DNA of 64,000 nucleotides, from the NCBI GenBank assembly GCA_031431875.1, contig JANPEF010000153.1, forward strand, positions 45,891 through 109,890, written 5' to 3'. Under the pieces are notes generated by a model that worked only from the letters and a program-made list of their open reading frames with translations, made no database searches and had not been told where the DNA came from. The position numbers and the translations under genes were made by a program. Below, piece after piece: positions 7,693 through 26,652 of the stretch; the stretch's first letter is position 1; the number at the start of each line of letters is the position of its first letter. The DNA comes from Candidatus Eiseniibacteriota bacterium. Its GTDB lineage: Bacteria > Eisenbacteria > RBG-16-71-46 > DASYSL01.

Positions 7693-7773
7693 ATGCAGGA
7701 TGATCGCCTGGTGCAGCTCTGCCGCTTGCTCGCGGCGCTCTACCTGATCGTCGCCGCCGCGCCGCTGGGCTGA
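7693..7773 (+). CDS. Possible 26-aa hydrophobic small protein (MQDDRLVQLCRLLAALYLIVAAAPLG)
   Basis: ATG 15 nt after TPR gene stop, GC-typical codons, hydrophobic C-half; weak RBS; overlaps 3' end of opposite gene. Confidence 0.25.
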   Translation: MQDDRLVQLCRLLAALYLIVAAAPLG

Positions 7774-9308
7774 GGGGCCGCGTCTCCGCTCGTGCGCCGG
7801 CGGTAGAATTCCATGCCCGTGGGCTGGCCCGGCACGGAATACGGCACGGCGACATAAGCCCCGGCGACGCTCGCGCGATCGCCCTCGTCACGAAACGGGG
7901 GCGCGCCGCTGGCGAATGCCTGGTTGGCGTCGAGGAATCCCTTGCGCACGACGAGCCAGTCCGGGCTGCGCCGGCGCACCACGTCGGCGTACCAGCCCGT
8001 GCCCGCGGCGCGCGACGTCGCGACGTCCGGCGCCACGAGTCCCACCTCGTCGATCATGCGCAGCTTCGCCTGGTAGCCAATGTGCCCCAGCGGCTCGAGC
8101 AGGACCGAATCGCCGGGCTTCGCCAGCGTGCGTAGCGCCACGCCGGACTGGTAGAACGAGATCACCTCCTGGCGTACGCGCTCGACGAACAGGTTGTGCA
8201 GCAGGATCGAGTCCGACACGAGGTAGAGCGCGAGGCTGGCGTACAGCAGCCGGTGTTTCGCGATCCGCTCGAGCCCGATGGCCGCGGTGAAGAACCAGCC
8301 GGCCGTCGGGACGACCGCATACCAGAAGAAGAACGGGACCCCGAGCAGGAAGTACGACGCGAGCACCGCGAGGCCCGCCAGGGCGACCAGCGTCGATGCC
8401 TGCGGCGCGCGCCGCTCGCGCCAGTACGTGGCGAACCCCAGCAGCGCGGCCGGCGCGGCGACGAGCGAGAAGGGGAGCAGGTTTGTCCCCTCGCCGGTCG
8501 CGGGCCAGCGCCCCGAGACGAACAGCGGAAACAGTCCTTCGATCCACTGCAGCCCCGCCAGCGGTCCCGGCGTGCCGTAGACAGCGGCCTTGGCCAGCAT
8601 GCTCTGCGGGAACGGCGACCCATAGTACGCGCCGAGCGCGAGCGCCCCCCCGGCGATCATGCCGAGCGCGATCATGCGCCCGCGCCACGAGGCCCCGAGC
8701 CCGAGCACGACTGCCGCGATCATTCCCTCCGGGCGCACCAGGGCGAGGAGCCCGAGCAGCACGCCCGCTCCCGGGAGCCGGGCGTGGAGGGCGGCGCCCG
8801 TGGCGAACAGCAGGCACAGGAACAGGCTCGTCTCCATGCCGAGGATCGCGTTGGCGGCAAAGACGGGGCACACGGCGAAGAACAGGGCGAATGCCCACGC
8901 CGCGACGGCTCCGCGCTCGCGGTGCAGCAGCGCGGCAGCCAGCCCGAGCGCCGTGAGGTCGAATGCGACACCCGAGACGCGCGCGAACAGGAGCGTGTCC
9001 TTCATCACCACCGCCCCGAGTGCGAGCCACGCGGTCCACAGCGGGGACGAGAAGCCGAACACAGGCTCGCCTGCGTTGTAGACCGGGCCCAGGCCGTGGG
9101 CCCAGTTTTCGGCGTAGCGGAATGTGATGTAGGCGTCCTCGGCCGCGAACGGGATCCGTGCGGCGCTGAGCATACGCACGACGAGCCCGAGCAGGAGCGG
9201 CACGAGGTAGGGGGAACGCAGATTCCAGGGGTCGAGCCCCGCGAGCAGGGCGGGGGAGGCTTCGGCTGGGGCGGGGGAGGCGCGCCGGGCTCGATCAAGG
9301 ATCGCCAT
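7740..9308 (-). CDS. Polytopic membrane protein, GT-C-like glycosyltransferase family
   Basis: EDAYITFRYA...GEPVFGFSSPLW loop after first TM, GMETSLF and RPEG motifs, more than 10 TM segments. Confidence 0.7.
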   Translation of the reverse strand: MAILDRARRASPAPAEASPALLAGLDPWNLRSPYLVPLLLGLVVRMLSAARIPFAAEDAYITFRYAENWAHGLGPVYNAGEPVFGFSSPLWTAWLALGAVVMKDTLLFARVSGVAFDLTALGLAAALLHRERGAVAAWAFALFFAVCPVFAANAILGMETSLFLCLLFATGAALHARLPGAGVLLGLLALVRPEGMIAAVVLGLGASWRGRMIALGMIAGGALALGAYYGSPFPQSMLAKAAVYGTPGPLAGLQWIEGLFPLFVSGRWPATGEGTNLLPFSLVAAPAALLGFATYWRERRAPQASTLVALAGLAVLASYFLLGVPFFFWYAVVPTAGWFFTAAIGLERIAKHRLLYASLALYLVSDSILLHNLFVERVRQEVISFYQSGVALRTLAKPGDSVLLEPLGHIGYQAKLRMIDEVGLVAPDVATSRAAGTGWYADVVRRRSPDWLVVRKGFLDANQAFASGAPPFRDEGDRASVAGAYVAVPYSVPGQPTGMEFYRRRTSGDAAPQPSGAAATIR

Positions 9309-9449
9309 GGGACAGGAAGCCTAGGCGGTTGGCGGGCCGAAAGCAACCGGTTGACGCCGGCCGCGTAGAGCGGTTGTCTTGACCCGATACGACTCGACCC
9401 GGACGCGCGACCGCGCGTCCGGCCGGATGCCCCCGGAGGAGGAAGCACG

Positions 9450-11370: not shown

Positions 11371-14097
11371 TCAGCGGATGAGCACGAAGCTCCCGCGTTG
11401 GGTCGCCCCCCCGCCCGCGACCGAGAAGAGGTAGATGCCGCTGGTCACGTCCTGCCCGTTGCGCGAGATCAGGTTCCACGACGCCTGGCCGTCCTCGGGG
11501 GTCTCGACCTGCGGCTTCCCGTTGGTCTGCAGGTCGGTCGGCCGAATGGTCTGCACCAGGTCACCCGCGACGGTGAAGATGCGCAGCGTCCACGCACCCG
11601 GTGGCAGGTTCAGGAAATCGACGTGCGTGCCGGTGGGGTCGGTCGGGCTGGGCTCGAGGTCCCACGACGCGCCGCCGCGATACGGGTTCGGCACGACGAA
11701 CACCTTCTTCTCCGTGCCACCCGAGGCGGTGGCGGCGCCGGCCTGCGGCGCCACGCCGTCGGCCTCGCGCGCGACACGCGCGCTCTCGCGTCGGCGCAGC
11801 GTCCCCGCCGATCCGTCGGCGCCGGGCGCCCCGGTCGAGTCGACGGCGGTGACGGCGTAGAAGTAGGTGAAACCGTTCGCCACCTCGGGATCCTCGTAGC
11901 GATAGCGGCCGACGGGATAGTGCGGAACGCGCGCATCGGCCGTGACGCGCACGCAGCGGCACGTCGGGTCGTAGGCGTCGCGTCGCCCGACCGAGACGAT
12001 CGTGTCGCCACTTGCCGGATCGGTCAGCGGCGCGATGTCGGCGGGCACGAGGCGCAGACCCGACTCGCGATCGAGCAGCACCGGCGCGATCGGGCGCACG
12101 CCGTCGAGCACTCCGTCGAAGTCCGTGTCCGTCGAATCCCACAATGGCGCGTACGGATCGAACACCGCCAGGTCCGCGAGCAACTCCCACTGGTCTTCGG
12201 CCGGGCCGGTCGTCCCGCGCGGGCGTGTCCAGCCGGCGGCGCGGTATACCCGGTAGCCGCGCACGTCGAACTTGCCCGCGTTCGGATCGAGGCCCGCATT
12301 CGTGCGATCACCGACGTATTCGCTCGCGTTGTCCCACTCGATCGTCACCTTGCGATTGCCCGGCGTGGTCCGCACGTTCGGGCCCTGGGGCGGCAGCTCG
12401 ATGCGCCAGCGCCGCGGCAGCTTGCCCTTCACGCCCGTGCAGTAGTCGCAGTTGTCGAAGTTCGCCCAGAAGATCTCGTGGTCGGTGACCGTGCGGCCCG
12501 TGCCCGTCGAGTCGGCGTTGAAGTGACAGTCCTCGACCACGATCTCGGTTCCCCGGGGCGCGGTGACGGGCGTCTCGCGGCCGTTCTCGGGTGGCACGGG
12601 CGTGCCTGGCGGGGGCGTCTCGTAGCGTCCGCGGTAGGCCTTCTGGATGGCGAGCGCGCCGTCGTACACCGCACCGTAGCGCGCACGGTTCGGCACCGAG
12701 GGATTGGCCGGATCGCGCGCCGGTGCGCTGTGATCGACCGGGAAGACGCTGAGCGCGACGGTGGCGAACACGCGTTGCCCGGGGACCAGGCGGGGGAACG
12801 GCCCGATCGAGACCAGCGCGGTCCAGTCGGCGACGCGCCGGCCGTCGGGACTCTCCGGGTCGAGGCAGATGCCACGGCGGCACGGGCCTCCGGCGAGCGC
12901 GTCGTAACGCTCGAGGTCCACCGAGGGTGGTCCGCCCTGCGTGAACGGGATCCCGGGAAGGAAGAACTGCTTCGCGCGGAAGGCAATCGTCCGCGGGGCG
13001 GTGCCGAACTCGAGGTCGGTCGTGTGATCGAGCAACAGGAACGTGCTCGCGCCCGGCGAGAGCCCGCCGTCGCCATCGTCGTCGATCACCGTGAAGCCGC
13101 GGGTCGAGATCGAGCTGCGCACGCAGAAGCCTCCGGTGTGGTTGGGATCGGTGCGCGGATCGTAGCGCGGGTCCTCGCGGTCGATGACCTCGGTCAGCGT
13201 CTGGTTCGGCACGGCGGGCTCGATCCTGTCGTCGCGCCAGTAGCCCTCGCGCGCCAGCGGCCCCACGTCGGGATCGACGAAGAAACCGACGTACACCGAG
13301 TCCAGGACCGCGGTCCCCGCGTTCGTGATCTCGTAGGTGACCGCCGCGGCGTCCTCGACGTCGGGTCCGGTGAACGAGTGCACCGTCTGGCGCACGCGCA
13401 GCCCGAGGGGCAGGTGTTGCTCGGCGAAGTTCGCGTTGGTCGCCTGCGGCGTGTCGTCGCTCATGGAAAACGTGTACGTGCGCTGGCCGATCGCGGCGTA
13501 GTCCTCGTCGATCGCGCCGTCGCCGTCGTCGTCGCGCCCGTCGAGGAACTCCTCGTCGTAGCGCCCGTCTCCGTCGTCGTCGACCTCACGCAGGCCCTGC
13601 GGAGTGCCTTCGTACGATTCGTAGATGCGGTCCACCGGGTCGAGCGTCGGCGGCCGCCACTCGGTCGCCTGGCTCACGCGGTAGCGACGGCCGGCGTCGG
13701 CCTCGCCGGGTCGGACGGCGCCGACCCACAGCCCCCAGTAATAGAGGTACTCGACGCCCGACGGGCCCGGCCACTGGGCCGCGGGGTCGGACGACAGCGC
13801 GGGGTAGGCGTTTCCCATGACGCCGATGTTCGTGGCCTTCATCCACAGGCGGCCGGCCGAGGTGATGCGGCCGGGACCGCCGATCTCGGGCACCGCGTGC
13901 GGATGCAAGGGCGTGCGCTGGCGCGGTGCGTCGCCGGCCGTCGGGGCGGGGCCCGGCGGGATCGCGGGCACCATCGCGGGCAGGCCGTCGAGACCGCGGC
14001 CGCGCGCGAGCCCGACCGGGAGCCCCATGGCGAGCCCGACTCCGGCCGCGAGCACCACAAGGAATCCGCCGAGGCGCGCCCCGGGCGAACACCTCAC
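11371..14097 (-). CDS. Large secreted protein (908 aa) with DxDxDG Ca-binding loops, FN3-like module and FlgD/T9SS-like C-terminal domain
   Basis: GTG at 14097 overlapping upstream TGA; hydrophobic N-terminus; DDDGDG repeats; YFYAVTAVD; VVPNPY...IFTVAGDLV...WNLISRNGQDVTSGIYLF tail. Confidence 0.8.
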   Translation of the reverse strand: MRCSPGARLGGFLVVLAAGVGLAMGLPVGLARGRGLDGLPAMVPAIPPGPAPTAGDAPRQRTPLHPHAVPEIGGPGRITSAGRLWMKATNIGVMGNAYPALSSDPAAQWPGPSGVEYLYYWGLWVGAVRPGEADAGRRYRVSQATEWRPPTLDPVDRIYESYEGTPQGLREVDDDGDGRYDEEFLDGRDDDGDGAIDEDYAAIGQRTYTFSMSDDTPQATNANFAEQHLPLGLRVRQTVHSFTGPDVEDAAAVTYEITNAGTAVLDSVYVGFFVDPDVGPLAREGYWRDDRIEPAVPNQTLTEVIDREDPRYDPRTDPNHTGGFCVRSSISTRGFTVIDDDGDGGLSPGASTFLLLDHTTDLEFGTAPRTIAFRAKQFFLPGIPFTQGGPPSVDLERYDALAGGPCRRGICLDPESPDGRRVADWTALVSIGPFPRLVPGQRVFATVALSVFPVDHSAPARDPANPSVPNRARYGAVYDGALAIQKAYRGRYETPPPGTPVPPENGRETPVTAPRGTEIVVEDCHFNADSTGTGRTVTDHEIFWANFDNCDYCTGVKGKLPRRWRIELPPQGPNVRTTPGNRKVTIEWDNASEYVGDRTNAGLDPNAGKFDVRGYRVYRAAGWTRPRGTTGPAEDQWELLADLAVFDPYAPLWDSTDTDFDGVLDGVRPIAPVLLDRESGLRLVPADIAPLTDPASGDTIVSVGRRDAYDPTCRCVRVTADARVPHYPVGRYRYEDPEVANGFTYFYAVTAVDSTGAPGADGSAGTLRRRESARVAREADGVAPQAGAATASGGTEKKVFVVPNPYRGGASWDLEPSPTDPTGTHVDFLNLPPGAWTLRIFTVAGDLVQTIRPTDLQTNGKPQVETPEDGQASWNLISRNGQDVTSGIYLFSVAGGGATQRGSFVLIR

Positions 14098-16406
14098 CGC
14101 GACGCCCCCGGGCCCCGTCGTTCGCCTGCGGGCAGGGGCTCGACGCCGAGCACGCGCATGACCGCGCGCACCGCGACGCGCGCCTCGTCGTGGTGGAACG
14201 AGTGCAGTGGGAAGCCGAACCACACCACCTCGCCGTGCTCGCTGCCGTAGTAGTGGATCGCGTTCGGCCGGCCGTCGCTCAGGGCGCCCGGGCCGACGCC
14301 GCTGTAGTCGCGGGCCTGCAGCAGATAGAGCGTGTCGAGCACCGCGCGCTGGCCGGCGCCCGTGCCCTCGGTGATCACGTTGGGCTTCGAGACGTACCAG
14401 GTCTGGTTGATCGAGCGCTGGTTCACGTCGGGATTCGCGCCGCGGAACGTGTCGAGCGTGAGCTGCGGCAGGTCGGACCAGCGCACCGCGGTGCGCTCGG
14501 CGCCCGGTCCGATGCGCGGGTCGTGGGCGCGGTCGGTGTCGCTCGCCGGCCCGCGGAAGGCGGGCAGGAAGGGGATCGCGCCGCGCAGCTGCTCGAGACG
14601 CGTGAACGAGATCGACGCCGTTCCCGCCGTGTTCAGCTCGGAGCGCAGGTGCAGGAAGTCGTGGAGGAAGCTGCCCTGGCGCAGCACGTACTGGCGCGCA
14701 TTTGCCGGCGAGTTGGTGTACGGGATGTACGGCGCCGGCGGGAGGAACCCGTAGCCGATGCAAGCCGGCGCGCCCTCGCCGAACATGAACAGCTTGCCGC
14801 CCTGGCGCAGGTATGCCGCGAGCGTGTTGAGCCGCCCGCTGGTGTTGATCTGGACGAGCGCGTTGTTCTGTCCCGAGGCGCGATGGTCGGCATACCACGC
14901 GACGACGCGGTAGCGCCCCAGGCGCTCGAGCGTGATGTCGTTCAGTTGTGCCGAGCGCCAGTCGAGCGTGTCGCAAGGCAGCCCGGCAAACGCGCCGGGC
15001 ACGCTCGTCCCGCCGACCAGGCGGTCGGGGAAGCCGCCGACGGCGAAGTGGAACGTGTCCTGCTCCGCTTCGGTCGGATAGGGGTTCGCCGGCGAGTAGG
15101 AGAGCGTTCCATCCATGTCGTCGATGACCAGCAGCGGGTTCTCGAAGGTCGGCCGGATCACGTTCATGCGCAGCGTGAACAGCGACACGAACCCGAGGTC
15201 GTCGCGCGCCTCGACGTACATGAAGTGAGTCCGTGTCGTGTCGGCGCTGCCCGCGAAGGGACCGACGCCGGCGGTCGTCTCGGCGAGCGACCACGTGCTC
15301 CAGCGGTGGATGTCGAAGTCGTCGGCGCGCGGCGTCTCGTCGGTGATGTCGCCGCCGACGAGATCGAGCGCCCAGCGGTAGCCCGTGATCGTCGAGCCCG
15401 TGTTCGCCTGGCCCGACCAGCGGAAGCCGACGCTGACGCCCTCGGGCACTTCGATCGTCGGGATGCGCGACGGATCGAGGCTGATCCCGCCGGTCGTCTG
15501 CGTGCGGCTGAAGAACTCGTTGGCCAGCGTGATGCGCGGTCCCAGGTTCTTGAGCTGCGGGCGGAACAGCAGGACGTTGGCGTCGCGCAGGAAACGCTGC
15601 GTCGTCGCGCCCGCGCCGTCGATGGCGACGACGGCGAACACGTGCAGCGCGTCGACGGACAGTCCCGCATAGGCGCGCGACACCGTGGTCGCGTCGTAGG
15701 TCTCCCAGCCGACGAAACCCGTCAGCGCCTCGCGCGCGAAGTACTCCTGGAGCCGGGCGGCGGTGACGAGTTCGGGCTGGGTCGGGCGGATCGCCGTGGC
15801 GAGCACGAGGCGGCCGCGGTAGCCGACCGGCCCGGCGCCGTCGATCGCATCCGAGTCGACGCCCCGCCAGCGAATCGTCACCGACGTGCGCGTCGAAGTG
15901 GGCTGCTGGCGGTTCGGGATCGGCGCCGTGATGAACGCCTCGGGCGACACCGTGCGCGAGGTGAACGAGCGCGAGACCCGCGGTGAGGCGTCGCCGGCGC
16001 CGTCGATCGCGCGCAGCACGAAGGTGTGGGCGTCGCGCGAGTAAGCCACCGTGCCGGCCAGTGGCACGGGGCTCGACGGCGTGGTCGAGGGCAGCGCGAG
16101 GTTGAGCGTGAACTCCTTCGTCGCGATCCACGCCGTGTCGGTGTCGGGCAGGGGATCGAGCGCGTACTCGAAGCGCTCGATGCGTCCGTCCGGATCGTAG
16201 CCGGACCACGAGAGGTCGACCTGGTAGCTCGTCTCGCTGAGCGGGCGGGGCGCCGCGGTGAGTCGCACCTCGGGCCGCAGGTTGGGCAACGCGGTGCCCC
16301 CCGGATCCGATCCACAGCCCGGAGCGGCGACGACGACCGCGGCCAGGGCGGCGGCGGTCCACAGGAGTGCAAGGGTCGAGAGGGTCGGGCGCGCGGTGTC
16401 CGGCAT
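14094..16406 (-). CDS. Large probable lipoprotein (770 aa) with three Ig/FN3-like repeats
   Basis: Signal peptide ending VAAPGC; repeated W-x-G...Y-x-W/Y-ALD...H-x-F-x-V-x-A-x-D pattern three times. Confidence 0.75.
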   Translation of the reverse strand: MPDTARPTLSTLALLWTAAALAAVVVAAPGCGSDPGGTALPNLRPEVRLTAAPRPLSETSYQVDLSWSGYDPDGRIERFEYALDPLPDTDTAWIATKEFTLNLALPSTTPSSPVPLAGTVAYSRDAHTFVLRAIDGAGDASPRVSRSFTSRTVSPEAFITAPIPNRQQPTSTRTSVTIRWRGVDSDAIDGAGPVGYRGRLVLATAIRPTQPELVTAARLQEYFAREALTGFVGWETYDATTVSRAYAGLSVDALHVFAVVAIDGAGATTQRFLRDANVLLFRPQLKNLGPRITLANEFFSRTQTTGGISLDPSRIPTIEVPEGVSVGFRWSGQANTGSTITGYRWALDLVGGDITDETPRADDFDIHRWSTWSLAETTAGVGPFAGSADTTRTHFMYVEARDDLGFVSLFTLRMNVIRPTFENPLLVIDDMDGTLSYSPANPYPTEAEQDTFHFAVGGFPDRLVGGTSVPGAFAGLPCDTLDWRSAQLNDITLERLGRYRVVAWYADHRASGQNNALVQINTSGRLNTLAAYLRQGGKLFMFGEGAPACIGYGFLPPAPYIPYTNSPANARQYVLRQGSFLHDFLHLRSELNTAGTASISFTRLEQLRGAIPFLPAFRGPASDTDRAHDPRIGPGAERTAVRWSDLPQLTLDTFRGANPDVNQRSINQTWYVSKPNVITEGTGAGQRAVLDTLYLLQARDYSGVGPGALSDGRPNAIHYYGSEHGEVVWFGFPLHSFHHDEARVAVRAVMRVLGVEPLPAGERRGPGASR

Positions 16407-16417
16407 GGCGATTCATC

Positions 16418-22235: not shown

Positions 22236-23828
22236 CTACAGGGAGGAGGTCAGGCGCAACTCGACCCCGCGAAACGCGGGGACGTCATAGCAGGTGCCGG
22301 CCGTGCAAGCGAGTCCGCCGCGGCGGCTGCCGATCAGCAACGTGGCCTCGTGGCCGCGCGCGATCGTCGCTCCGATGACGGCGGCGAGAAACGTTCGCGG
22401 TTCCCCGGGGCGGTCGCCTTCCTCCTGGAGGGGATCGGTCGAGCGCTCCCAGGCAAGCCCCAGGCTGCCCAGTCCGGCGCGTTGCACGCCCACTGCGACG
22501 AGGTCGTCGCGAAAGCCGGTCGACGGCGCGCGCGTCGCGTTCTGCCGCTCCAGATCAAAGGTCGCGGACCAGGGCCCCGCCATCGTCACCGAGCCGGCCG
22601 TGCCGAAGACTTCCCGCCGCGTGATGAACACGAACTCGTCCTCGCCGCGCTCGTAGAATGCGGTGGCCTCGCCTCGACCCCACAGCAAGCCGGCCTCCGC
22701 TCCTGGCACGTGCAGCTCGAAGTACTCGCTGACGAATCGCGGCGTGCGCGAGCCGAAGCGTCCGTCGGAGCGCGACAGGTTGACGGTGAAGGCGCCCCAC
22801 TGCGGCGACGTCGCGATTCCTTCCAATTGATAGCCCTGCTCGCTGGAGGCGTTGAGCACGTGCGTATTCCGGTTCAGCAGCGGAAACGCATGCTCGCGAA
22901 CGAGCGAGGGCGGATCGTTGGTGCCGAAGCGGAAGTCGCGGTAATCCTTCCACTCGGCGGCAAGCGCCACGGGGCCGGCCAGGAAGTTGAGCCCGGCGTA
23001 CAGCGCGTGCGGTGTCCCTTCGTCGGTGCGGAAACGGAACCAGTCGCCCGCCGTGCCGTCGGTCTGTGCGTACTCGGCGTACACCGGAAGCGCCAGTCCC
23101 GTGACGCCGAAGGCGCGCAGGGGATCAATCTCGATGAATCCCGTCCCGTGCGACCGGTCGGTCGTGCCGCCCGGGGAGGCCAGGACATCGCGCAGGTAGG
23201 CCGCGCCGGCGCGTGCCCAGGGCCTTGGGGCGATCTCGACCTGGCCGCCGGACACATCCCCCGGATTGCGGTCGACCTCGAGCGCCTCGGCGAGACCCGG
23301 AGAGATCGTGCCGCCGCCCGGCGCGCCGGCGAGCCCGCGCCCGGAGACCCATCCGACGCGGCCTTCGACCAACGCCCCGTCGACGTCCCGGGACAGCGCG
23401 TACCGCGAGTCCGGGCCCGGCGGATCCAGCACGACGGCGGGCACCTCGAACGAGCGATGAATCAGGCCGCGGCCGAGGATCGTGTAGACGTTGCCGACCC
23501 GCCCGCGGAACGAGGCATCCGTCCCGGTCGCACTCCACTCGGCGAAGCGCTGGGTGATGGTCGCGTATTCGAACTGGTCCTGGCTGTTCCGGTCGGTCTC
23601 GAAGCGCAACCCGAGCCGCAACGACTCACGCGCGTAACCGAGAACGAGTCCATCGTAGAGATCGGTGCGGTCGGTGGGCTGCGTGATGTCGAAGGGATCA
23701 GAACCAACACGCATCTCGAGCAGGTTCGAGACCGCGAGCTGTGCGGCTGCCGGCGGGACGCAGGTGGCCAACGCGAGCAGGAGGACGAGCGCAATCCGGC
23801 CGCTCGCGACGGCTGCGGAACCAGCCAT
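22236..23828 (-). CDS. Outer-membrane beta-barrel protein, DUF6029-like
   Basis: Signal peptide; GNVYTILGRGL, NDPPSL, C-terminal GGLACTAGTCYDVPAFRGVELRLTSSL; family assignment from recall. Confidence 0.7.
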   Translation of the reverse strand: MAGSAAVASGRIALVLLLALATCVPPAAAQLAVSNLLEMRVGSDPFDITQPTDRTDLYDGLVLGYARESLRLGLRFETDRNSQDQFEYATITQRFAEWSATGTDASFRGRVGNVYTILGRGLIHRSFEVPAVVLDPPGPDSRYALSRDVDGALVEGRVGWVSGRGLAGAPGGGTISPGLAEALEVDRNPGDVSGGQVEIAPRPWARAGAAYLRDVLASPGGTTDRSHGTGFIEIDPLRAFGVTGLALPVYAEYAQTDGTAGDWFRFRTDEGTPHALYAGLNFLAGPVALAAEWKDYRDFRFGTNDPPSLVREHAFPLLNRNTHVLNASSEQGYQLEGIATSPQWGAFTVNLSRSDGRFGSRTPRFVSEYFELHVPGAEAGLLWGRGEATAFYERGEDEFVFITRREVFGTAGSVTMAGPWSATFDLERQNATRAPSTGFRDDLVAVGVQRAGLGSLGLAWERSTDPLQEEGDRPGEPRTFLAAVIGATIARGHEATLLIGSRRGGLACTAGTCYDVPAFRGVELRLTSSL

Positions 23829-23830
23829 CC

Positions 23831-24412
23831 TCACCGGGACGAGTCCGCGGGAGCCGTCGCCCCCGCGGTCGCGGGCAGCGTGTCCGCGGGCGCGATGACG
23901 GGCGGCAACAGCGCCTCGATGGCGGCGGCCACGGCCGCGCCCTCGCCGGGCCGGTAGCCGGTGAAGCGCCGTACGATCTTGCCGGTGGTGTCGATCAGCA
24001 CGGCGTTGGGGACTCCGCGTACCTCGAAGCGCTCTTGCAGGCGGCCGTCCTCGTCGAAGACGATCGGGTAGGTGAGGCCCATGCGGGTGACGAACGGGCG
24101 GACCCGCGTGGCGTTGCGCGGCCCGTCGACCGAGATGCCGACGACGGTCAGTCCCCGCGCGGCATACGCTTCGTGCACGGCCTGAATTTCGGGCAGCGAG
24201 GCGAGGCACGGCTTGCACCACGTCGCCCAGTAATCGAGCAGGATCGGTCCGCGCCGCCGCGCCGCGGCCAGCGGCAGACGCGTCCGCTCGACGGTGGTGA
24301 GGACGAGGTCGTCGATCGCCGCGCCCGTCGCACGCGCGTCCGGGGTGGGAACGAAACACGTCACGATCAGCACGGCAACCAGCGTCCGAAGCCGGATGGG
24401 GTGACGGCTCAC
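23831..24412 (-). CDS. TlpA/ResA-like thiol:disulfide oxidoreductase
   Basis: Signal peptide, YWATWCKPC active site, GVPNAVLID cis-Pro loop. Confidence 0.92.
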   Translation of the reverse strand: MSRHPIRLRTLVAVLIVTCFVPTPDARATGAAIDDLVLTTVERTRLPLAAARRRGPILLDYWATWCKPCLASLPEIQAVHEAYAARGLTVVGISVDGPRNATRVRPFVTRMGLTYPIVFDEDGRLQERFEVRGVPNAVLIDTTGKIVRRFTGYRPGEGAAVAAAIEALLPPVIAPADTLPATAGATAPADSSR

Positions 24413-25314
24413 TGCAGGGCGACCACGCGACGGGTCACCACGGTTCCGCCGCTGGCGGCTCGCAGCCAGTAGGCGCCCGCCGCCCTGCGGCTCCCGGTCT
24501 CGTCGAGACGGAAGACGACGCGCGCGGTCCCGCCTGCAGCGATGCCGTCGAAGAGCGTGGCGACTCGCCGTCCTCGCAGGTCATGGAGCGTCACCGTGAC
24601 TGGAACATCGCCGCCCTCGGCGTCGGGGGGAACGCGCACGTCGACTCGGAGCGCCTCGCGGAACGGGTTGGGTGTGCCGGTGAGGGACAGCATCGGGCCG
24701 ATGGAAAGCGGGGCATCGACCGTGCTGGTCACCAGCGAGTCGACCGCCCCGCGGATCTGGTCGAGGTGGTAGCGATTGCCGTGGGCCCACAGTGTCGAGG
24801 CGTAGTAGCGCACGATCCCCTGCTTGCTGATGACCGCGTAGTTGTCGTACGCCGGGACTCCGCCGTACAGGGTGTTGAGGTCGCCCCCGGTGGCCGAGCC
24901 GCCGAGCATCAGGAGGGGATAGGTCGTCCCCGTCGAGTTCTTGAACTGCTGTACCTGGGCGGTCGTTCCGTTGAACATGTCGACGCCCAGCACCTGGACC
25001 TGGCCGGGCGCCGCGCTCTGGTAGTGCTGCCAGAGGTCCAGCTCGACCGACGGACCGTCGGCCAGGCAGAAGGGTCAGCTATAGCCGAGGAGGAAGAGGA
25101 CGACGACCTTGCCCGAGAAGCTGGCCAGGGAGACCGGGCCTCCCCCCAGCTCGGTCTTGGTGAAGTTGGGGGCGACCGAGCCGTGCACCACGGCGGCCGC
25201 GGCGGCGGGGATCCCCGCCGGGGGGACCGCAGCCGATCCCAGGATGAGTCCCAGGGCGAGGAGCGGGCCGGCGACGAGTCGGTCGGCGGGTCGAGGACGG
25301 CGGTGGGGGCTCAT
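24409..25314 (-). CDS. Probable selenoprotein: exported redoxin (UPFC) fused to FlgD/T9SS-like C-terminal domain, 301 aa; TGA at 25075..25077 read as Sec
   Basis: ORFs 25075..25440 and 24409..24993 are in frame across one TGA; reads APNFT...GKVVVLFLLGYS-U-PFC...VQVLGVD; SECIS-like hairpin; tail TPNPF...LHDLRGRRVATL...AGAYWLR. Confidence 0.8.
25045..25063 (-). promoter_or_regulatory. Bacterial SECIS-like hairpin
   Basis: GGCCGACG-GUC-CGUCGGUC, 8-bp stem starting 11 nt after the UGA, G first in the loop. Confidence 0.6.
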
Positions 25315-25509
25315 GACGGGGCTCCGGGCTCGGGAATTCGTACGGTTGATCCTGCGATCTGCCGAAGGTACGGGAGGGCAGTGGGCATTGTGACTCCGTC
25401 CGCCCTCGGGCGTCCGGTTTCGGCTCAAGCTCCTTTGCAACGTGCCGATGACGGATGCGTCGGGGGAATGCGCCCCCGAAAACGGTTGCGATTCAGGGAG
25501 GAAACCGCC

Positions 25510-26652
25510 GTGGTCGTCGTCAGCTACTCGGGCAAGGAAATCAACGCCAAGCTGGTCTATTACGGCACCGGGCTTTCGGGCAAGACGACGAACCTCGAGG
25601 CCATCTACGAAGCCGTCCCCGACAACAGTCGCGGGAAGATGGTGTCGATGAAGACGCAGTCCGACCGCACCCTGTTCTTCGACCTGCTGCCGCTCGACCT
25701 GGGCGAGGTCATGGGGTTCAAGACCCGCTTCCTCCTCTACACGGTTCCGGGCCAGGTCTTCTACAACGCCACGCGCAAGCTGGTGCTCAAGGGTGCCGAT
25801 GCGATCGTGTTCGTCGCCGACTCCGAACGCGGCAAGATGGACGAGAACAAGGAGTCGCTGTCGAACCTCCGCGCCAACCTCGCGGAGTACAAGGTCAACC
25901 TCGACGACCTGCCGTGGGTGCTGCAGTACAACAAGCGCGACCTGCCCGACGTCTACACGGTCGAGGAACTGAATCGCGAGCTCAACCCGAGCAACGTCCC
26001 CTGGGTCGAAGGCGTGGCCACCAAGGGCACGGGCGTCCTCGAGACGTTCCGCCTGGTGAGCCAGATGCTGCTCGAGCGGGTGACCAAGGACCTGCGACGG
26101 TCGCCCTCGACGACCGGCGCGCGCGAGGTGCCACGTCCCGCACCGGCCCAGTCGCCGAGTGCGCCGCAGGCGGCCTCGGCCGGTCCGGTGGCGATGCCGT
26201 CGTCGCCCCCACCGCCGACGTTCCGCGCGACTGCCGCTCCGGTCGCGCCGCAGGCTCCGAGTCCGTTTGCGCCGCAGCCGGTCGCCGCCGCACCATTGTC
26301 GCCGCTGCCTGCCATCTCCATGCCGCAGGTCCCCGGCCTGGTCACCGGATCATCGCCCTTCACTCCGTCCAGCCGGGGAGAGATCGGGACGCACCCGGCC
26401 GCAGACCGTGCCGACCGGAACGCGCCTGCCCCACCGCCGCTGCGCAGCATGCAGAAGGAGGGCCCCGGGCCGGTCATGGACCTCGGGACGAACTTCCAGC
26501 GCAACATCCAGTTGCCCACCGAGGAGCGCCTGGCCCGTCCGGCGGTCGCGAGCGAGCCGCTGGTGGTGCCCATCACGCTCGACGGCTCGGTGCGGGAGAT
26601 CGTCCTGCGCATCGTCATCGAGCAGAAGGAGCGCGTCGACCGCGCCGCTTGA
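25510..26652 (+). CDS. mglA: MglA-like small GTPase with Pro-rich C-terminal extension
   Basis: EINAKLVYYGTGLSGKTTNL, DRTLFFD, TVPGQVFY, QYNKRDLP; GTG 25510 after GGGAGGA. Confidence 0.85.
   Translation: MVVVSYSGKEINAKLVYYGTGLSGKTTNLEAIYEAVPDNSRGKMVSMKTQSDRTLFFDLLPLDLGEVMGFKTRFLLYTVPGQVFYNATRKLVLKGADAIVFVADSERGKMDENKESLSNLRANLAEYKVNLDDLPWVLQYNKRDLPDVYTVEELNRELNPSNVPWVEGVATKGTGVLETFRLVSQMLLERVTKDLRRSPSTTGAREVPRPAPAQSPSAPQAASAGPVAMPSSPPPPTFRATAAPVAPQAPSPFAPQPVAAAPLSPLPAISMPQVPGLVTGSSPFTPSSRGEIGTHPAADRADRNAPAPPPLRSMQKEGPGPVMDLGTNFQRNIQLPTEERLARPAVASEPLVVPITLDGSVREIVLRIVIEQKERVDRAA

What the first reader, a model, noticed from the sequence alone, without database searches (positions are those of the whole stretch)
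24409..25314. Hidden selenoprotein: in-frame UGA in a UxxC motif with SECIS-like hairpin, fused to a sorting domain
The ORF track splits this gene at TGA 25075-25077. Read through, it gives ...GKVVVLFLLGYS-U-P-F-C-LADGP..., so the UGA sits exactly at the first Cys of the thioredoxin CxxC. An 8-bp hairpin with a G-first loop begins 11 nt downstream, the spacing of the minimal E. coli fdhF SECIS. The 3' half has no good start of its own and its stop is coupled to tlpA. Sec redoxins are known; one with a signal peptide and a FlgD/T9SS-like tail, implying an extracellular selenoprotein, is unusual.
Basis: partly seen in the sequence, partly recalled or inferred. Interest (0 to 1): 0.85.

Follow-up and report, generated by a model that had tools for sequence, protein, structure and literature searches.

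The report
Hidden secreted selenocysteine redoxin gene
A gene that annotation pipelines cut in two at a UGA codon is almost certainly one exported thiol-redox enzyme with selenocysteine in its active site, conserved together with its RNA insertion hairpin across the uncultured soil phylum Eisenbacteria; this is a solid addition to a known class of bacterial selenoproteins, not a new principle.

Summary
On the minus strand, ATG 25314 to TGA 24409 reads as one 301-codon frame. It is interrupted only by TGA 25077-25075, at the first Cys of a CxxC motif in an AhpC/TSA-Redoxin domain that spans the stop.

An 8-bp hairpin with a GUC loop starts 12 nt after the UGA. Alone it is unremarkable in 71% GC DNA (z = -0.58). 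Comparison makes the case:
- Of 99 family copies read at DNA level (35 genome loci, 63 metagenome instances, the window), 88 carry TGA at this codon and 11 carry TGT/TGC.
- The N-terminal part stays in frame and conserved.
- The hairpin is nearly invariant at synonymous sites in TGA forms only.
- It shows compensatory changes: 97% of cells paired, 0/500 shuffles.
- It meets all four published bacterial SECIS criteria.

The protein has a signal peptide, a Prx-like/TlpA-like Trx fold (U-P-F-C) and a C-terminal T9SS-type/FlgD-Ig beta-sandwich. It sits in a conserved module with a TlpA-like reductase and a DUF6029 outer-membrane barrel.

The selenocysteine machinery (selA/B/C/D) of this genome could not be examined, and surface localisation is inferred.

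Verdict: a genuine, systematically misannotated selenoprotein; a new architectural variant of the known UxxC redoxin selenoproteins.

The parts
24409..25314 (-). Complete selenoprotein gene: 301 codons including Sec80, plus the terminal TGA
   Evidence: Translation. The Pfam domain spans the internal TGA. Full-length Cys homologues of about 280-290 aa align end to end.
25322..25325 (-). GGAG Shine-Dalgarno-like motif, 7 nt upstream of the ATG at 25314-25312
   Evidence: Read directly from the sequence. Its function is inferred.
25192..25314 (-). N-terminal Sec-type signal peptide, about residues 1-41: a basic n-region, a hydrophobic core and an Ala-rich cleavage region. No twin-arginine consensus is present.
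   Evidence: Sequence inspection. Homologues carry classical signal peptides ending in A-x-A. The N-terminus of the AF2 model is a lone low-confidence helix. No signal-peptide predictor was available.
24802..25182 (-). Thioredoxin-fold AhpC/TSA-Redoxin domain, residues 45-171
   Evidence: Pfam. A PDB profile search hits ResA-type oxidoreductases. The AF2 model of Cys homologue P0003 has pLDDT 90, and Foldseek matches 2ls5, ResA and DsbE at TM about 0.8.
25075..25077 (-). In-frame UGA, read as selenocysteine 80
   Evidence: It aligns with the first Cys of the CxxC motif in homologues. The codon is TGA in 88 of 99 family copies.
25066..25077 (-). Active-site motif U-P-F-C (residues 80-83)
   Evidence: In the AF2 model of the homologue, the CxxC motif sits at the N-terminus of helix 73-93, just after strand 62-68.
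25045..25063 (-). SECIS hairpin core: 8-bp stem (25063-25056 with 25052-25045) and loop GUC (25055-25053). It starts at the 12th nt after the UGA, and 19 nt separate the UGA from the loop.
   Evidence: The core folds at -11.3 kcal/mol. Covariation is shown. Synonymous-site constraint is shown. It meets the bSECIS criteria.
24421..24672 (-). C-terminal beta-sandwich, a T9SS type A sorting-domain-like / FlgD Ig-like domain (residues 215-298)
   Evidence: TIGR04183 scores 21.2 bits here (cutoff 23) and 33.3 bits in homologue P0030. PF13860 and PF18962 match homologues. A PDB profile search hits the FlgD Ig domain and the C-terminus of PorZ, 5m11. The AF2 model has seven beta-strands across residues 202-288.
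24409..24411 (-). Ordinary terminator TGA of the same gene. It overlaps a GTG of the longest TlpA-like ORF.
   Evidence: TGA is the terminator of 19 of 29 identified genes in the window.
23831..24412 (-). Downstream TlpA/ResA-like thiol-disulfide oxidoreductase with signal or anchor sequence and a WCKPC motif. This motif always has Cys in relatives.
   Evidence: Pfam and NCBIfam. It is syntenic in about 30 loci. The FWATWCxPC motif is present in all of them.
22236..23828 (-). DUF6029 protein: a signal peptide plus a large outer-membrane beta-barrel, with an invariant C508-T-A-G-T-C513. It is the third gene of the conserved module.
   Evidence: Pfam. Synteny. Alignment invariants. The AF2 model has pLDDT 88.6 and pTM 0.83 and is all-beta. 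Foldseek matches usher and TonB-receptor barrels. A natural TlpA-DUF6029 fusion exists, P0165.

Best explanation
This is one gene for an exported selenoprotein.

Recoding. During translation the UGA at 25077-25075 is recoded to selenocysteine. The hairpin that starts 12 nt downstream, with the apical sequence G-GUC-C, acts as a bacterial SECIS. When the ribosome reaches the UGA, the hairpin lies just outside the mRNA channel. It recruits SelB-GTP-Sec-tRNA(Sec), which competes with RF2.

Product. The 301-residue precursor is exported through the Sec translocon and its signal peptide is removed. The mature protein has two parts. The first is a Prx-like/TlpA-like thioredoxin-fold domain whose active site is U80-P-F-C83, a selenol/thiol pair that cycles through a selenenylsulfide. 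The second is a C-terminal beta-sandwich of the T9SS type A sorting / FlgD-Ig kind.

Likely function. It most likely acts as an extracytoplasmic reductase (of disulfides, or possibly of peroxides) in the periplasm or on the cell surface. It would be re-reduced through the co-transcribed periplasmic TlpA-like protein, and it is functionally tied to the DUF6029 outer-membrane barrel.

What is shown and what is inferred:
- Shown: the frame, the Sec/Cys column, the conserved and covarying hairpin, the domain folds and the synteny.
- Inferred: actual Sec insertion, the export route, the final location, the electron path and the substrate.

Evolution. Sec appears to be the ancestral state of the family, with repeated Sec-to-Cys replacements.
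For: Single reading frame:
- One frame; the Pfam Redoxin/AhpC-TSA domain spans the TGA.
- GC3 is 0.96 upstream and 0.94 downstream of the TGA, and it is the only such TGA in 64 kb.

Sec/Cys column:
- 120 database relatives fall into two classes: about 35 full-length CxxC proteins, and about 85 fragments of about 205-215 aa that start at varying points just after the motif.
- DNA of 35 species-level genome loci, nearly all Candidatus Eisenbacteria: 26 TGA, 9 TGT/TGC, never TAA or TAG. The upstream frame is conserved, e.g. GKVVVLFLLGY.
- 63 metagenome instances: 61 TGA, 2 Cys.

Hairpin:
- Synonymous third positions of the Gly-Pro-Ser codons are 100/100/93% conserved in TGA forms against 44/44/78% in Cys forms.
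- Third-position diversity is 0.20 in the hairpin against 0.45 and 0.37 in the flanks for TGA forms. It is 0.55 in Cys forms.
- Core energy averages -10.5 kcal/mol in TGA forms and -4.9 in Cys forms, Mann-Whitney p = 2.5e-4.
- Covariation on 65 distinct sequences: 96.9% of cells paired. Pair 18-36 is C:G in 37 and G:C in 25 sequences, with both changes at synonymous sites. Pair 21-33 is C:G in 54 and G:C in 10. 0/500 shuffles reach the score, and slid registers reach at most 58% paired.
- bSECIS criteria: loop 3-9 nt (here 3, or 5 if the closing G-C pair opens), stem 4-16 bp (8), G[G|U] at the start of the loop (GU), 16-37 nt from UGA to loop (19), MFE <= -7.5 (-11.3).

Other points:
- The closest relative, L004 (89% identity), has TGT and still keeps the intact hairpin. 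This is as expected for a recent Sec-to-Cys change.
- The TGA is identical in three independent assemblies.
- TGA is the normal terminator in this window, 19 of 29 genes, so there is no general reassignment.
- Fold and domains.
- Module synteny.
Against: - No selA, selB, selD or tRNA-Sec was found in the window or in about 540 kb of related loci. The rest of this genome could not be reached.
- No paper in the searchable library links Eisenbacteria with selenocysteine.
- There is no Rfam SECIS match.
- The hairpin of the single sequence is not energetically unusual for this composition.
- The hairpin overlaps a conserved peptide (A/T-D-G-P-S-V), so part of its conservation is protein-level.
- A few TGA forms have a weakened stem: a C-U mismatch where Asp is replaced by Ala, and L033.
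- There is no experimental evidence of Se incorporation.
- The sorting-domain score of the window protein is below the curated cutoff, and T9SS genes were not seen in the window.
Confidence: 0.88

Rival explanations
1. The UGA is read through by something other than the Sec system, for example near-cognate Trp or Cys insertion or a lineage-specific suppressor tRNA. In that case the conserved hairpin would act as a read-through stimulator or pause site.
For: The Sec machinery was not observed. Any mechanism that gives a full-length protein would preserve the frame and could select for a downstream structure.
Against: - The codon sits exactly where homologues have the catalytic Cys. That is the signature of Sec/Cys pairs, not of Trp or Gly read-through.
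- The hairpin matches the SelB-type model in position and in its G-U loop.
- Only TGA is found at this site, never TAG or TAA.
- TGA terminates most genes in the window, including this one.
Confidence: 0.05
2. The gene is a pseudogene, or the TGA is a nonsense mutation or a sequencing/assembly error private to this strain.
For: The closest species-level relative, L004, has TGT at this codon. One metagenome copy, L087, has a second stop three codons later.
Against: - The sequence is identical in three independent assemblies.
- TGA is found at the same codon in 88 of 99 copies, from dozens of species at 40-60% protein identity.
- Both halves keep a coding signature and a conserved sequence.
Confidence: 0.01
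3. Two separate products are made: a 79-residue exported peptide that ends at the UGA, and an internally initiated C-terminal protein.
For: Gene callers annotate it this way. RF2 termination at Sec codons does occur as a by-product (PMC4513850).
Against: - The putative internal starts are not conserved in position and lie inside the Trx fold.
- The C-terminal piece would lack its signal peptide, the first beta-strands and the active site.
- The Cys forms are plainly single proteins.
Confidence: 0.02
4. It is a selenoprotein, but it resides in the periplasm. On this reading the C-terminal beta-sandwich is just an Ig-like interaction domain, as in DipZ or FlgD. It could dock onto the DUF6029 barrel or a substrate rather than act as a T9SS export signal.
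For: - The window protein is below the TIGR04183 cutoff and matches FlgD_ig only weakly.
- The DipZ C-terminal region (Trx plus beta-sandwich) is among the top fold matches.
- No T9SS genes were seen in the window.
- No literature was found on T9SS in Eisenbacteria.
Against: - Homologues pass the T9SS sorting-domain models (P0030 at 33.3 bits; PF18962 hits).
- The profile matches the C-terminus of PorZ (5m11), which from my own knowledge is a T9SS C-terminal domain.
- The domain is at the extreme C-terminus, as in T9SS cargo.
Confidence: 0.4

Closest known systems
Prx-like thiol:disulfide oxidoreductase selenoproteins (PF00578, UxxC/UxxU) and 'Redoxin family protein' selenoproteins (PF08534, UxxC), as catalogued in PMC13188914
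   Same: - Same Pfam families, with matches above threshold.
- Same UxxC motif, with Sec in the first position.
- Cys-containing homologues exist.
- The SECIS lies in the coding sequence directly after the UGA.
- A Prx-type G-x-x-R element after the central strand (KQGIVRY, with G166, R169 and Y170 invariant).
   Different: - It carries a signal peptide and a C-terminal T9SS-type/FlgD-Ig beta-sandwich.
- It belongs to a fixed module with a TlpA-like protein and a DUF6029 barrel.
- It is found in Candidatus Eisenbacteria.
- No NCBIfam selenoprotein model recognises it, and public records annotate the TGA forms as truncated hypothetical proteins.
- I could not determine whether the catalogue's example, HEU0032618.1, belongs to this same family.
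ResA / TlpA / DsbE (CcmG) extracytoplasmic thiol-disulfide oxidoreductases
   Same: - Best sequence and fold matches: 2ls5, ResA 1st9/1su9, 3kcm, DsbE 3gl3, at TM about 0.8.
- Exported proteins.
- The CxxC-type motif sits at the N-terminus of helix 1.
   Different: - Sec replaces the N-terminal Cys.
- The canonical cis-Pro before the central strand is not conserved; the element here is Y-D-N-Y.
- There is an extra C-terminal domain.
- NCBIfam scores are far below the ResA/TlpA cutoffs (30 against 170).
Bacterial SECIS consensus (bSECIS model) and the E. coli fdhF SECIS
   Same: - A stem-loop in the coding sequence.
- 19 nt from the UGA to the loop.
- G followed by U at the start of a small apical loop.
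- An 8-bp G+C-rich upper stem, at -11.3 kcal/mol.
- From my own knowledge: 11-nt spacing to the minimal fdhF hairpin, and a GGUC apical sequence with an essential G-U.
   Different: - There is no bulged U.
- The sequence is unrelated to any Rfam model.
- It is unusually invariant across a whole phylum.
T9SS type A cargo proteins (C-terminal sorting domain, TIGR04183 / PF18962)
   Same: - N-terminal signal peptide.
- A C-terminal beta-sandwich of about 85 residues that matches the models in homologues and matches the C-terminus of PorZ, 5m11.
   Different: - The window protein is just below the cutoff.
- T9SS machinery has not been demonstrated for this organism.
- No selenoprotein cargo has been described in the searched literature.
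M. tuberculosis DipZ C-terminal region (Trx-like domain plus beta-sandwich)
   Same: A two-domain arrangement of an extracytoplasmic Trx-fold reductase followed by a beta-sandwich. It ranks 2-6 in the fold search.
   Different: The overall superposition is poor (rmsd about 20 A, so the domains are oriented differently). DipZ has a membrane DsbD-like part, uses Cys, and is not homologous in its beta-sandwich.

Membership tests
Bacterial selenoprotein (SelB/SECIS-dependent UGA recoding) | In-frame UGA within a conserved coding region, with both flanks coding in the same frame | tested here: met
Bacterial selenoprotein (SelB/SECIS-dependent UGA recoding) | The UGA aligns with Cys in homologues (a Sec/Cys pair), and the UGA is conserved across species | tested here: met
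   88 TGA and 11 Cys codons at the same column.
Bacterial selenoprotein (SelB/SECIS-dependent UGA recoding) | A downstream stem-loop that fits the bSECIS model: loop 3-9 nt, stem 4-16 bp, G in the first two loop positions, 16-37 nt from the UGA, MFE <= -7.5 | tested here: met
   Loop GUC, 8 bp, 19 nt, -11.3 kcal/mol. Covariation and synonymous-site constraint are specific to TGA forms.
Bacterial selenoprotein (SelB/SECIS-dependent UGA recoding) | selA, selB, selC (tRNA-Sec) and selD present in the same genome | not testable with these tools
   None were found in the window or in 540 kb of related loci.
Bacterial selenoprotein (SelB/SECIS-dependent UGA recoding) | Selenium demonstrated in the protein (75Se labelling or mass spectrometry) | not testable with these tools
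   The organism is uncultured and known only from metagenome data.
Prx-like / Redoxin thiol:disulfide oxidoreductase (PF00578 / PF08534) | Pfam match above the gathering score | tested here: met
   42.3 bits against 26, and 39.9 against 26.6, with Cys substituted for Sec.
Prx-like / Redoxin thiol:disulfide oxidoreductase (PF00578 / PF08534) | A thioredoxin fold with the redox motif at the N-terminus of the first long helix | tested here: met
   AF2 model of Cys homologue P0003 (59% identity), pLDDT 90. C72/C75 lie at the start of helix 73-93. Foldseek matches ResA and DsbE at TM about 0.8.
Prx-like / Redoxin thiol:disulfide oxidoreductase (PF00578 / PF08534) | Reductase or peroxidase activity | not testable with these tools
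   Requires biochemistry.
T9SS type A cargo | C-terminal sorting domain matching TIGR04183 / PF18962 above the cutoff | tested here: inconclusive
   The window protein scores 21.2 bits against a cutoff of 23. Homologue P0030 scores 33.3 bits. PF18962 gives 24-25 bits against 27 in P0030 and P0084. PF13860 FlgD_ig passes in homologues.
T9SS type A cargo | N-terminal Sec signal peptide | tested here: met
   By sequence inspection only. No predictor was run.
T9SS type A cargo | T9SS machinery encoded in the genome | not testable with these tools
   Not seen among the window's genes. No literature was found.

The most novel reading that the evidence does not exclude
The protein is a cell-surface selenoenzyme, exported by a T9SS-type C-terminal signal or through its own partner barrel. 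It would be the terminal member of a dedicated thiol/selenol redox relay that spans the envelope: an inner-membrane reductant, then the periplasmic TlpA-like protein, then the DUF6029 barrel with its invariant Cys pair, then the Sec-redoxin. The relay would be ancestral to the phylum Eisenbacteria. This would be the first surface-displayed selenoprotein and a new kind of extracellular reductive system in soil bacteria. The family would also be an unusually clear case of repeated Sec-to-Cys reversion in bacteria, with a 'fossil' SECIS.
Probability: 0.2. Interest if true: 0.7.

Novelty: new variant of a known kind. Interest (0 to 1): 0.45.

Why it matters
- It adds an uncultured, soil-abundant phylum to the users of selenocysteine. 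No paper in the searchable library connects the two.
- A whole, well-conserved protein family is systematically split or truncated in public annotation. Examples are HKQ59331.1, MGH7726891.1 and MEO6461935.1, each listed as 'hypothetical protein'.
- The family gives a very clean natural experiment on SECIS evolution. The same 19-nt hairpin is kept at synonymous sites across dozens of species and decays once the UGA becomes a Cys codon. One intermediate, L004, has been caught with Cys plus an intact hairpin.
- If the sorting domain is functional, selenium chemistry would be placed at or beyond the outer membrane. That bears on extracellular redox processes and on the selenium demand of soil bacteria.

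Tried and rejected
- Rfam at gathering score on the whole window, and at E <= 10 on 24900-25200: no SECIS or other credible family.
- ARAGORN on the window and all loci: no tRNA-Sec.
This is uninformative about the genome as a whole.
- Extending the contig beyond the right edge of the window through an edge gene: the other assemblies end within 0.4 kb of that gene.
- Literature searches:
  - Eisenbacteria with selenocysteine: none.
  - A badly framed multi-term search returned only unrelated selenium papers.
  - Eisenbacteria with type IX secretion: none.
  - Selenocysteine with type IX secretion: one irrelevant paper.
- A family-specific HMM of the C-terminal domain found no other protein with this domain in the window.
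- A scan for other TGA codons with a coding signature on both sides: none in the window. In the related loci it found only further copies of this family plus one probable artefact.
- Rejected readings: general UGA reassignment, sequencing error, pseudogene.
Full report
**1. What is in the sequence**

The feature lies on the minus strand. ATG 25314-25312, preceded by GGAG at a 7-nt spacing, opens a frame that runs to TGA 24411-24409. The frame has a single internal stop, TGA 25077-25075.

The read-through product is 301 residues. It has a basic and hydrophobic N-terminus, then ...GKVVVLFLLGYS-[UGA]-PFCLADGPSVE..., and a C-terminal third rich in beta-strand sequence. With Cys placed at the stop, Pfam AhpC-TSA (42.3 bits) and Redoxin (39.9 bits) match residues 45-171, on both sides of the stop.

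This is the only TGA in the 64 kb window that has a strong coding signature on both sides in the same frame (third-position G+C of 0.96 and 0.94). TGA is also the ordinary terminator here: 19 of 29 identified genes use it, this gene included. The whole gene, TGA included, is 100% identical in contigs assembled independently from three sequencing runs.

**2. The hairpin, taken alone and in comparison**

After the UGA come 11 spacer nucleotides. An 8-bp stem follows (25063-25056 paired with 25052-25045), closed by the loop G-U-C (25055-25053).

On its own this is not remarkable in 71% G+C DNA. The 48-nt segment folds at -17.5 kcal/mol, with z = -0.58 against dinucleotide shuffles. No Rfam family matches. 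The weight of the case comes from relatives.

**3. Relatives**

A protein search returned 120 close relatives that fall into two length classes. About 35 are 276-306 residues long and carry a CxxC motif at this position. About 85 are roughly 205-215 residues long and begin at various points just after the motif. That pattern is what gene callers produce when they meet an in-frame UGA.

I fetched the DNA of 36 species-representative genome loci, nearly all labelled Candidatus Eisenbacteria, and read the frame through; 35 were analysable (L022 was not). Twenty-six carry TGA at exactly the first Cys position and nine carry TGT or TGC. TAA and TAG never occur. The upstream part stays in frame and conserved. 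A scan of JGI metagenome contigs added 63 instances, of which 61 are TGA and 2 are Cys. Counting the window, 88 of 99 copies have TGA.

Public records annotate the TGA forms as truncated 'hypothetical proteins', for example HKQ59331.1, MGH7726891.1 and MEO6461935.1. The Cys forms are annotated as 'redoxin domain-containing protein'.

**4. The hairpin is under RNA-level selection in TGA forms only**

- In TGA forms the codons Gly-Pro-Ser are GGU-CCG-UCG almost without exception. Their third positions are 100, 100 and 93% conserved, against 44, 44 and 78% in Cys forms.
- Third-position diversity falls to 0.20 in the hairpin codons of TGA forms, against 0.45 and 0.37 in the flanks. In Cys forms it is 0.55.
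- The 19-nt core folds at a mean of -10.5 kcal/mol in TGA forms and -4.9 in Cys forms (p = 2.5e-4).
- Base pairs covary. On 65 distinct sequences, 96.9% of cells form standard pairs. The outermost pair is C:G in 37 and G:C in 25 sequences, and both changes fall on synonymous third positions of the Leu/Ile and Val codons. Pair 21-33 is C:G in 54 and G:C in 10. No shuffle out of 500 reaches the observed score, and slid registers give at most 58% pairing (the smaller set is).
- The structure meets every criterion of the published bacterial SECIS model: loop 3-9 nt, stem 4-16 bp, G then G/U at the start of the loop, 16-37 nt from UGA to loop, MFE <= -7.5 kcal/mol (PMC13188914). The values here are GUC, 8 bp, 19 nt and -11.3 kcal/mol.
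- From my own knowledge, the 11-nt spacing and the G-U in a GGUC apical sequence also recall the minimal E. coli fdhF element and the G-U contacts made by SelB.

**5. Sec or Cys over the tree**

In a neighbour-joining tree, the TGA forms occupy all major branches and the Cys forms are scattered. All TGA forms share the same hairpin. The simplest reading is therefore that Sec is ancestral and was replaced by Cys at least five times.

The window's nearest species-level relative, L004 (89% identity), has TGT yet retains the intact hairpin at -11.3 kcal/mol. It is an apparent recent conversion with a fossil SECIS.

The 2026 review states that Sec-to-Cys replacement is rarely documented in bacteria, so this is worth a proper phylogenetic test. 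The tree I made is only a rough distance tree.

**6. The protein**

The AlphaFold2 model of a 59%-identical Cys homologue is confident (pLDDT 90). It shows an N-terminal helix (the signal peptide), a thioredoxin fold with the CxxC motif at the start of helix 73-93, and a seven-stranded C-terminal beta-sandwich.

The fold and profile neighbours of the first domain are extracytoplasmic thiol-disulfide oxidoreductases: 2ls5, ResA, DsbE and Geobacter 3kcm, at TM about 0.8. Peroxiredoxins follow further down the list. The family keeps a Prx-like G-x-x-R element (KQGIVRY; G166, R169 and Y170 are invariant) and lacks a conserved cis-Pro. 'Prx-like thiol:disulfide oxidoreductase' therefore describes it better than 'TlpA'.

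The C-terminal domain matches TIGR04183 (T9SS type A sorting domain) at 21.2 bits in the window protein, just below the cutoff of 23, and at 33.3 bits in homologue P0030. Homologues also match PF13860 (FlgD_ig) and PF18962. The family profile hits FlgD Ig domains and the C-terminus of PorZ, 5m11. The signal peptide is of the Sec type, with no twin-arginine consensus. This is by inspection only.

**7. Context**

In about 30 loci with enough flank, the gene is followed by two others (in two loci, L023 and L029, it is instead preceded by them). The first is a TlpA/ResA-like protein whose FWATWCxPC motif is always Cys. The second is a DUF6029 protein.

I modelled DUF6029 (pLDDT 88.6, pTM 0.83). 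It is a large plug-less outer-membrane beta-barrel. Its nearest folds are usher pores and TonB-dependent receptor barrels, at modest TM scores. It carries an invariant C-T-A-G-T-C near its C-terminus. One natural protein, P0165, fuses the TlpA-like domain to DUF6029.

The rest of the window is ordinary chromosome: the dcw cluster, recG, trpA, valS, uvrB, groEL, two-component systems and others. It holds no Sec machinery, no ccdA/dsbD and no T9SS genes.

**8. Mechanism proposed**

Shown:
- a single frame;
- the Sec/Cys column;
- a conserved, covarying, correctly placed hairpin;
- the folds;
- the three-gene module.

Inferred:
- SelB-dependent insertion of Sec at UGA 80, in competition with RF2. 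The ribosome covers about 11 nt of downstream mRNA, so the hairpin is exposed when the UGA is in the A site (PMC4513850).
- Sec-translocon export.
- A U80/C83 selenenylsulfide redox cycle.
- Re-reduction by the TlpA-like neighbour.
- Delivery to, or anchoring at, the outer membrane through the C-terminal domain, with DUF6029 as partner.

**9. What could not be done**

The window's contig could not be extended. The roughly 540 kb of related DNA I hold is syntenic neighbourhood and contains none of these genes.

The literature library holds nothing on selenium use or T9SS in Eisenbacteria, and nothing on selenoprotein T9SS cargo.

**10. Comparison with what is known, and verdict**

UxxC selenoproteins of the Prx-like (PF00578), Redoxin (PF08534) and TlpA-like kinds are already catalogued as high-confidence predictions. 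Extracytoplasmic selenoproteins are also known. In mechanism this is therefore a known kind.

The following are not described in anything I could search:
- the fusion to a secretion-type C-terminal domain;
- the fixed module with a TlpA-like protein and an outer-membrane barrel;
- the phylum;
- the near-invariant SECIS;
- the pattern of Sec-to-Cys reversions.

I could not establish whether the catalogue's 'Redoxin family protein' example (HEU0032618.1) is this same family.

I rate it a real selenoprotein gene (confidence 0.88), a new architectural variant of a known kind, and of moderate interest.

Noticed in passing
window 22236-23828 (-): DUF6029 protein, always third in the module. The AF2 model is a large outer-membrane beta-barrel. 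An invariant Cys pair (C508-TAGT-C513) sits in a hairpin near the C-terminus. One database protein, P0165 (666 aa), is a natural fusion of the TlpA-like domain with DUF6029.
   Followed up: partly
L004 139-1038 (JANOEH010000245.1): The closest species-level relative (89% identity) has TGT instead of TGA but keeps the complete hairpin (-11.3 kcal/mol). This is an apparent recent Sec-to-Cys conversion with a fossil SECIS.
   Followed up: partly
L012 about 5075; L055; L056; L022: Some contigs carry two tandem paralogues of the redoxin. L056 has one Cys copy and one TGA copy. L012 has a second TGA copy with a divergent motif (DYT-UGA-EFCAAAAPSVE) and an altered hairpin. L022 starts with the C-terminus of an upstream copy.
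   Followed up: no
L087 about 2190-2675: This metagenome copy has a second in-frame stop three codons after the Sec codon (PYC*TAGP). It is probably a decaying copy or a read error.
   Followed up: no
window 25510-26652 (+): A divergently transcribed MglA/Arf-like small GTPase with a long Pro/Ala-rich C-terminal extension of about 190 residues. It is also adjacent in L005 (71% identity) but not in most other loci.
   Followed up: no
L017 (JBKJYH010000102.1), L022 (JABFRZ010000591.1): Contigs binned as Limnocylindria and Planctomycetota carry the same three-gene module at 50% identity to Eisenbacteria copies. Likely explanations are mis-binning or mislabelling; gene transfer is also possible.
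   Followed up: no
window 14094-16412 (-) and 7740-9320 (-): Two long ORFs with a strong coding signature (772 and 526 codons, GC3 of 0.90-0.93) have no Pfam match at E <= 0.001.
   Followed up: no
L095 269-354: ARAGORN reports an odd 'tRNA-???' with a two-base anticodon (cc) just upstream of the family gene. It is probably a false call.
   Followed up: no
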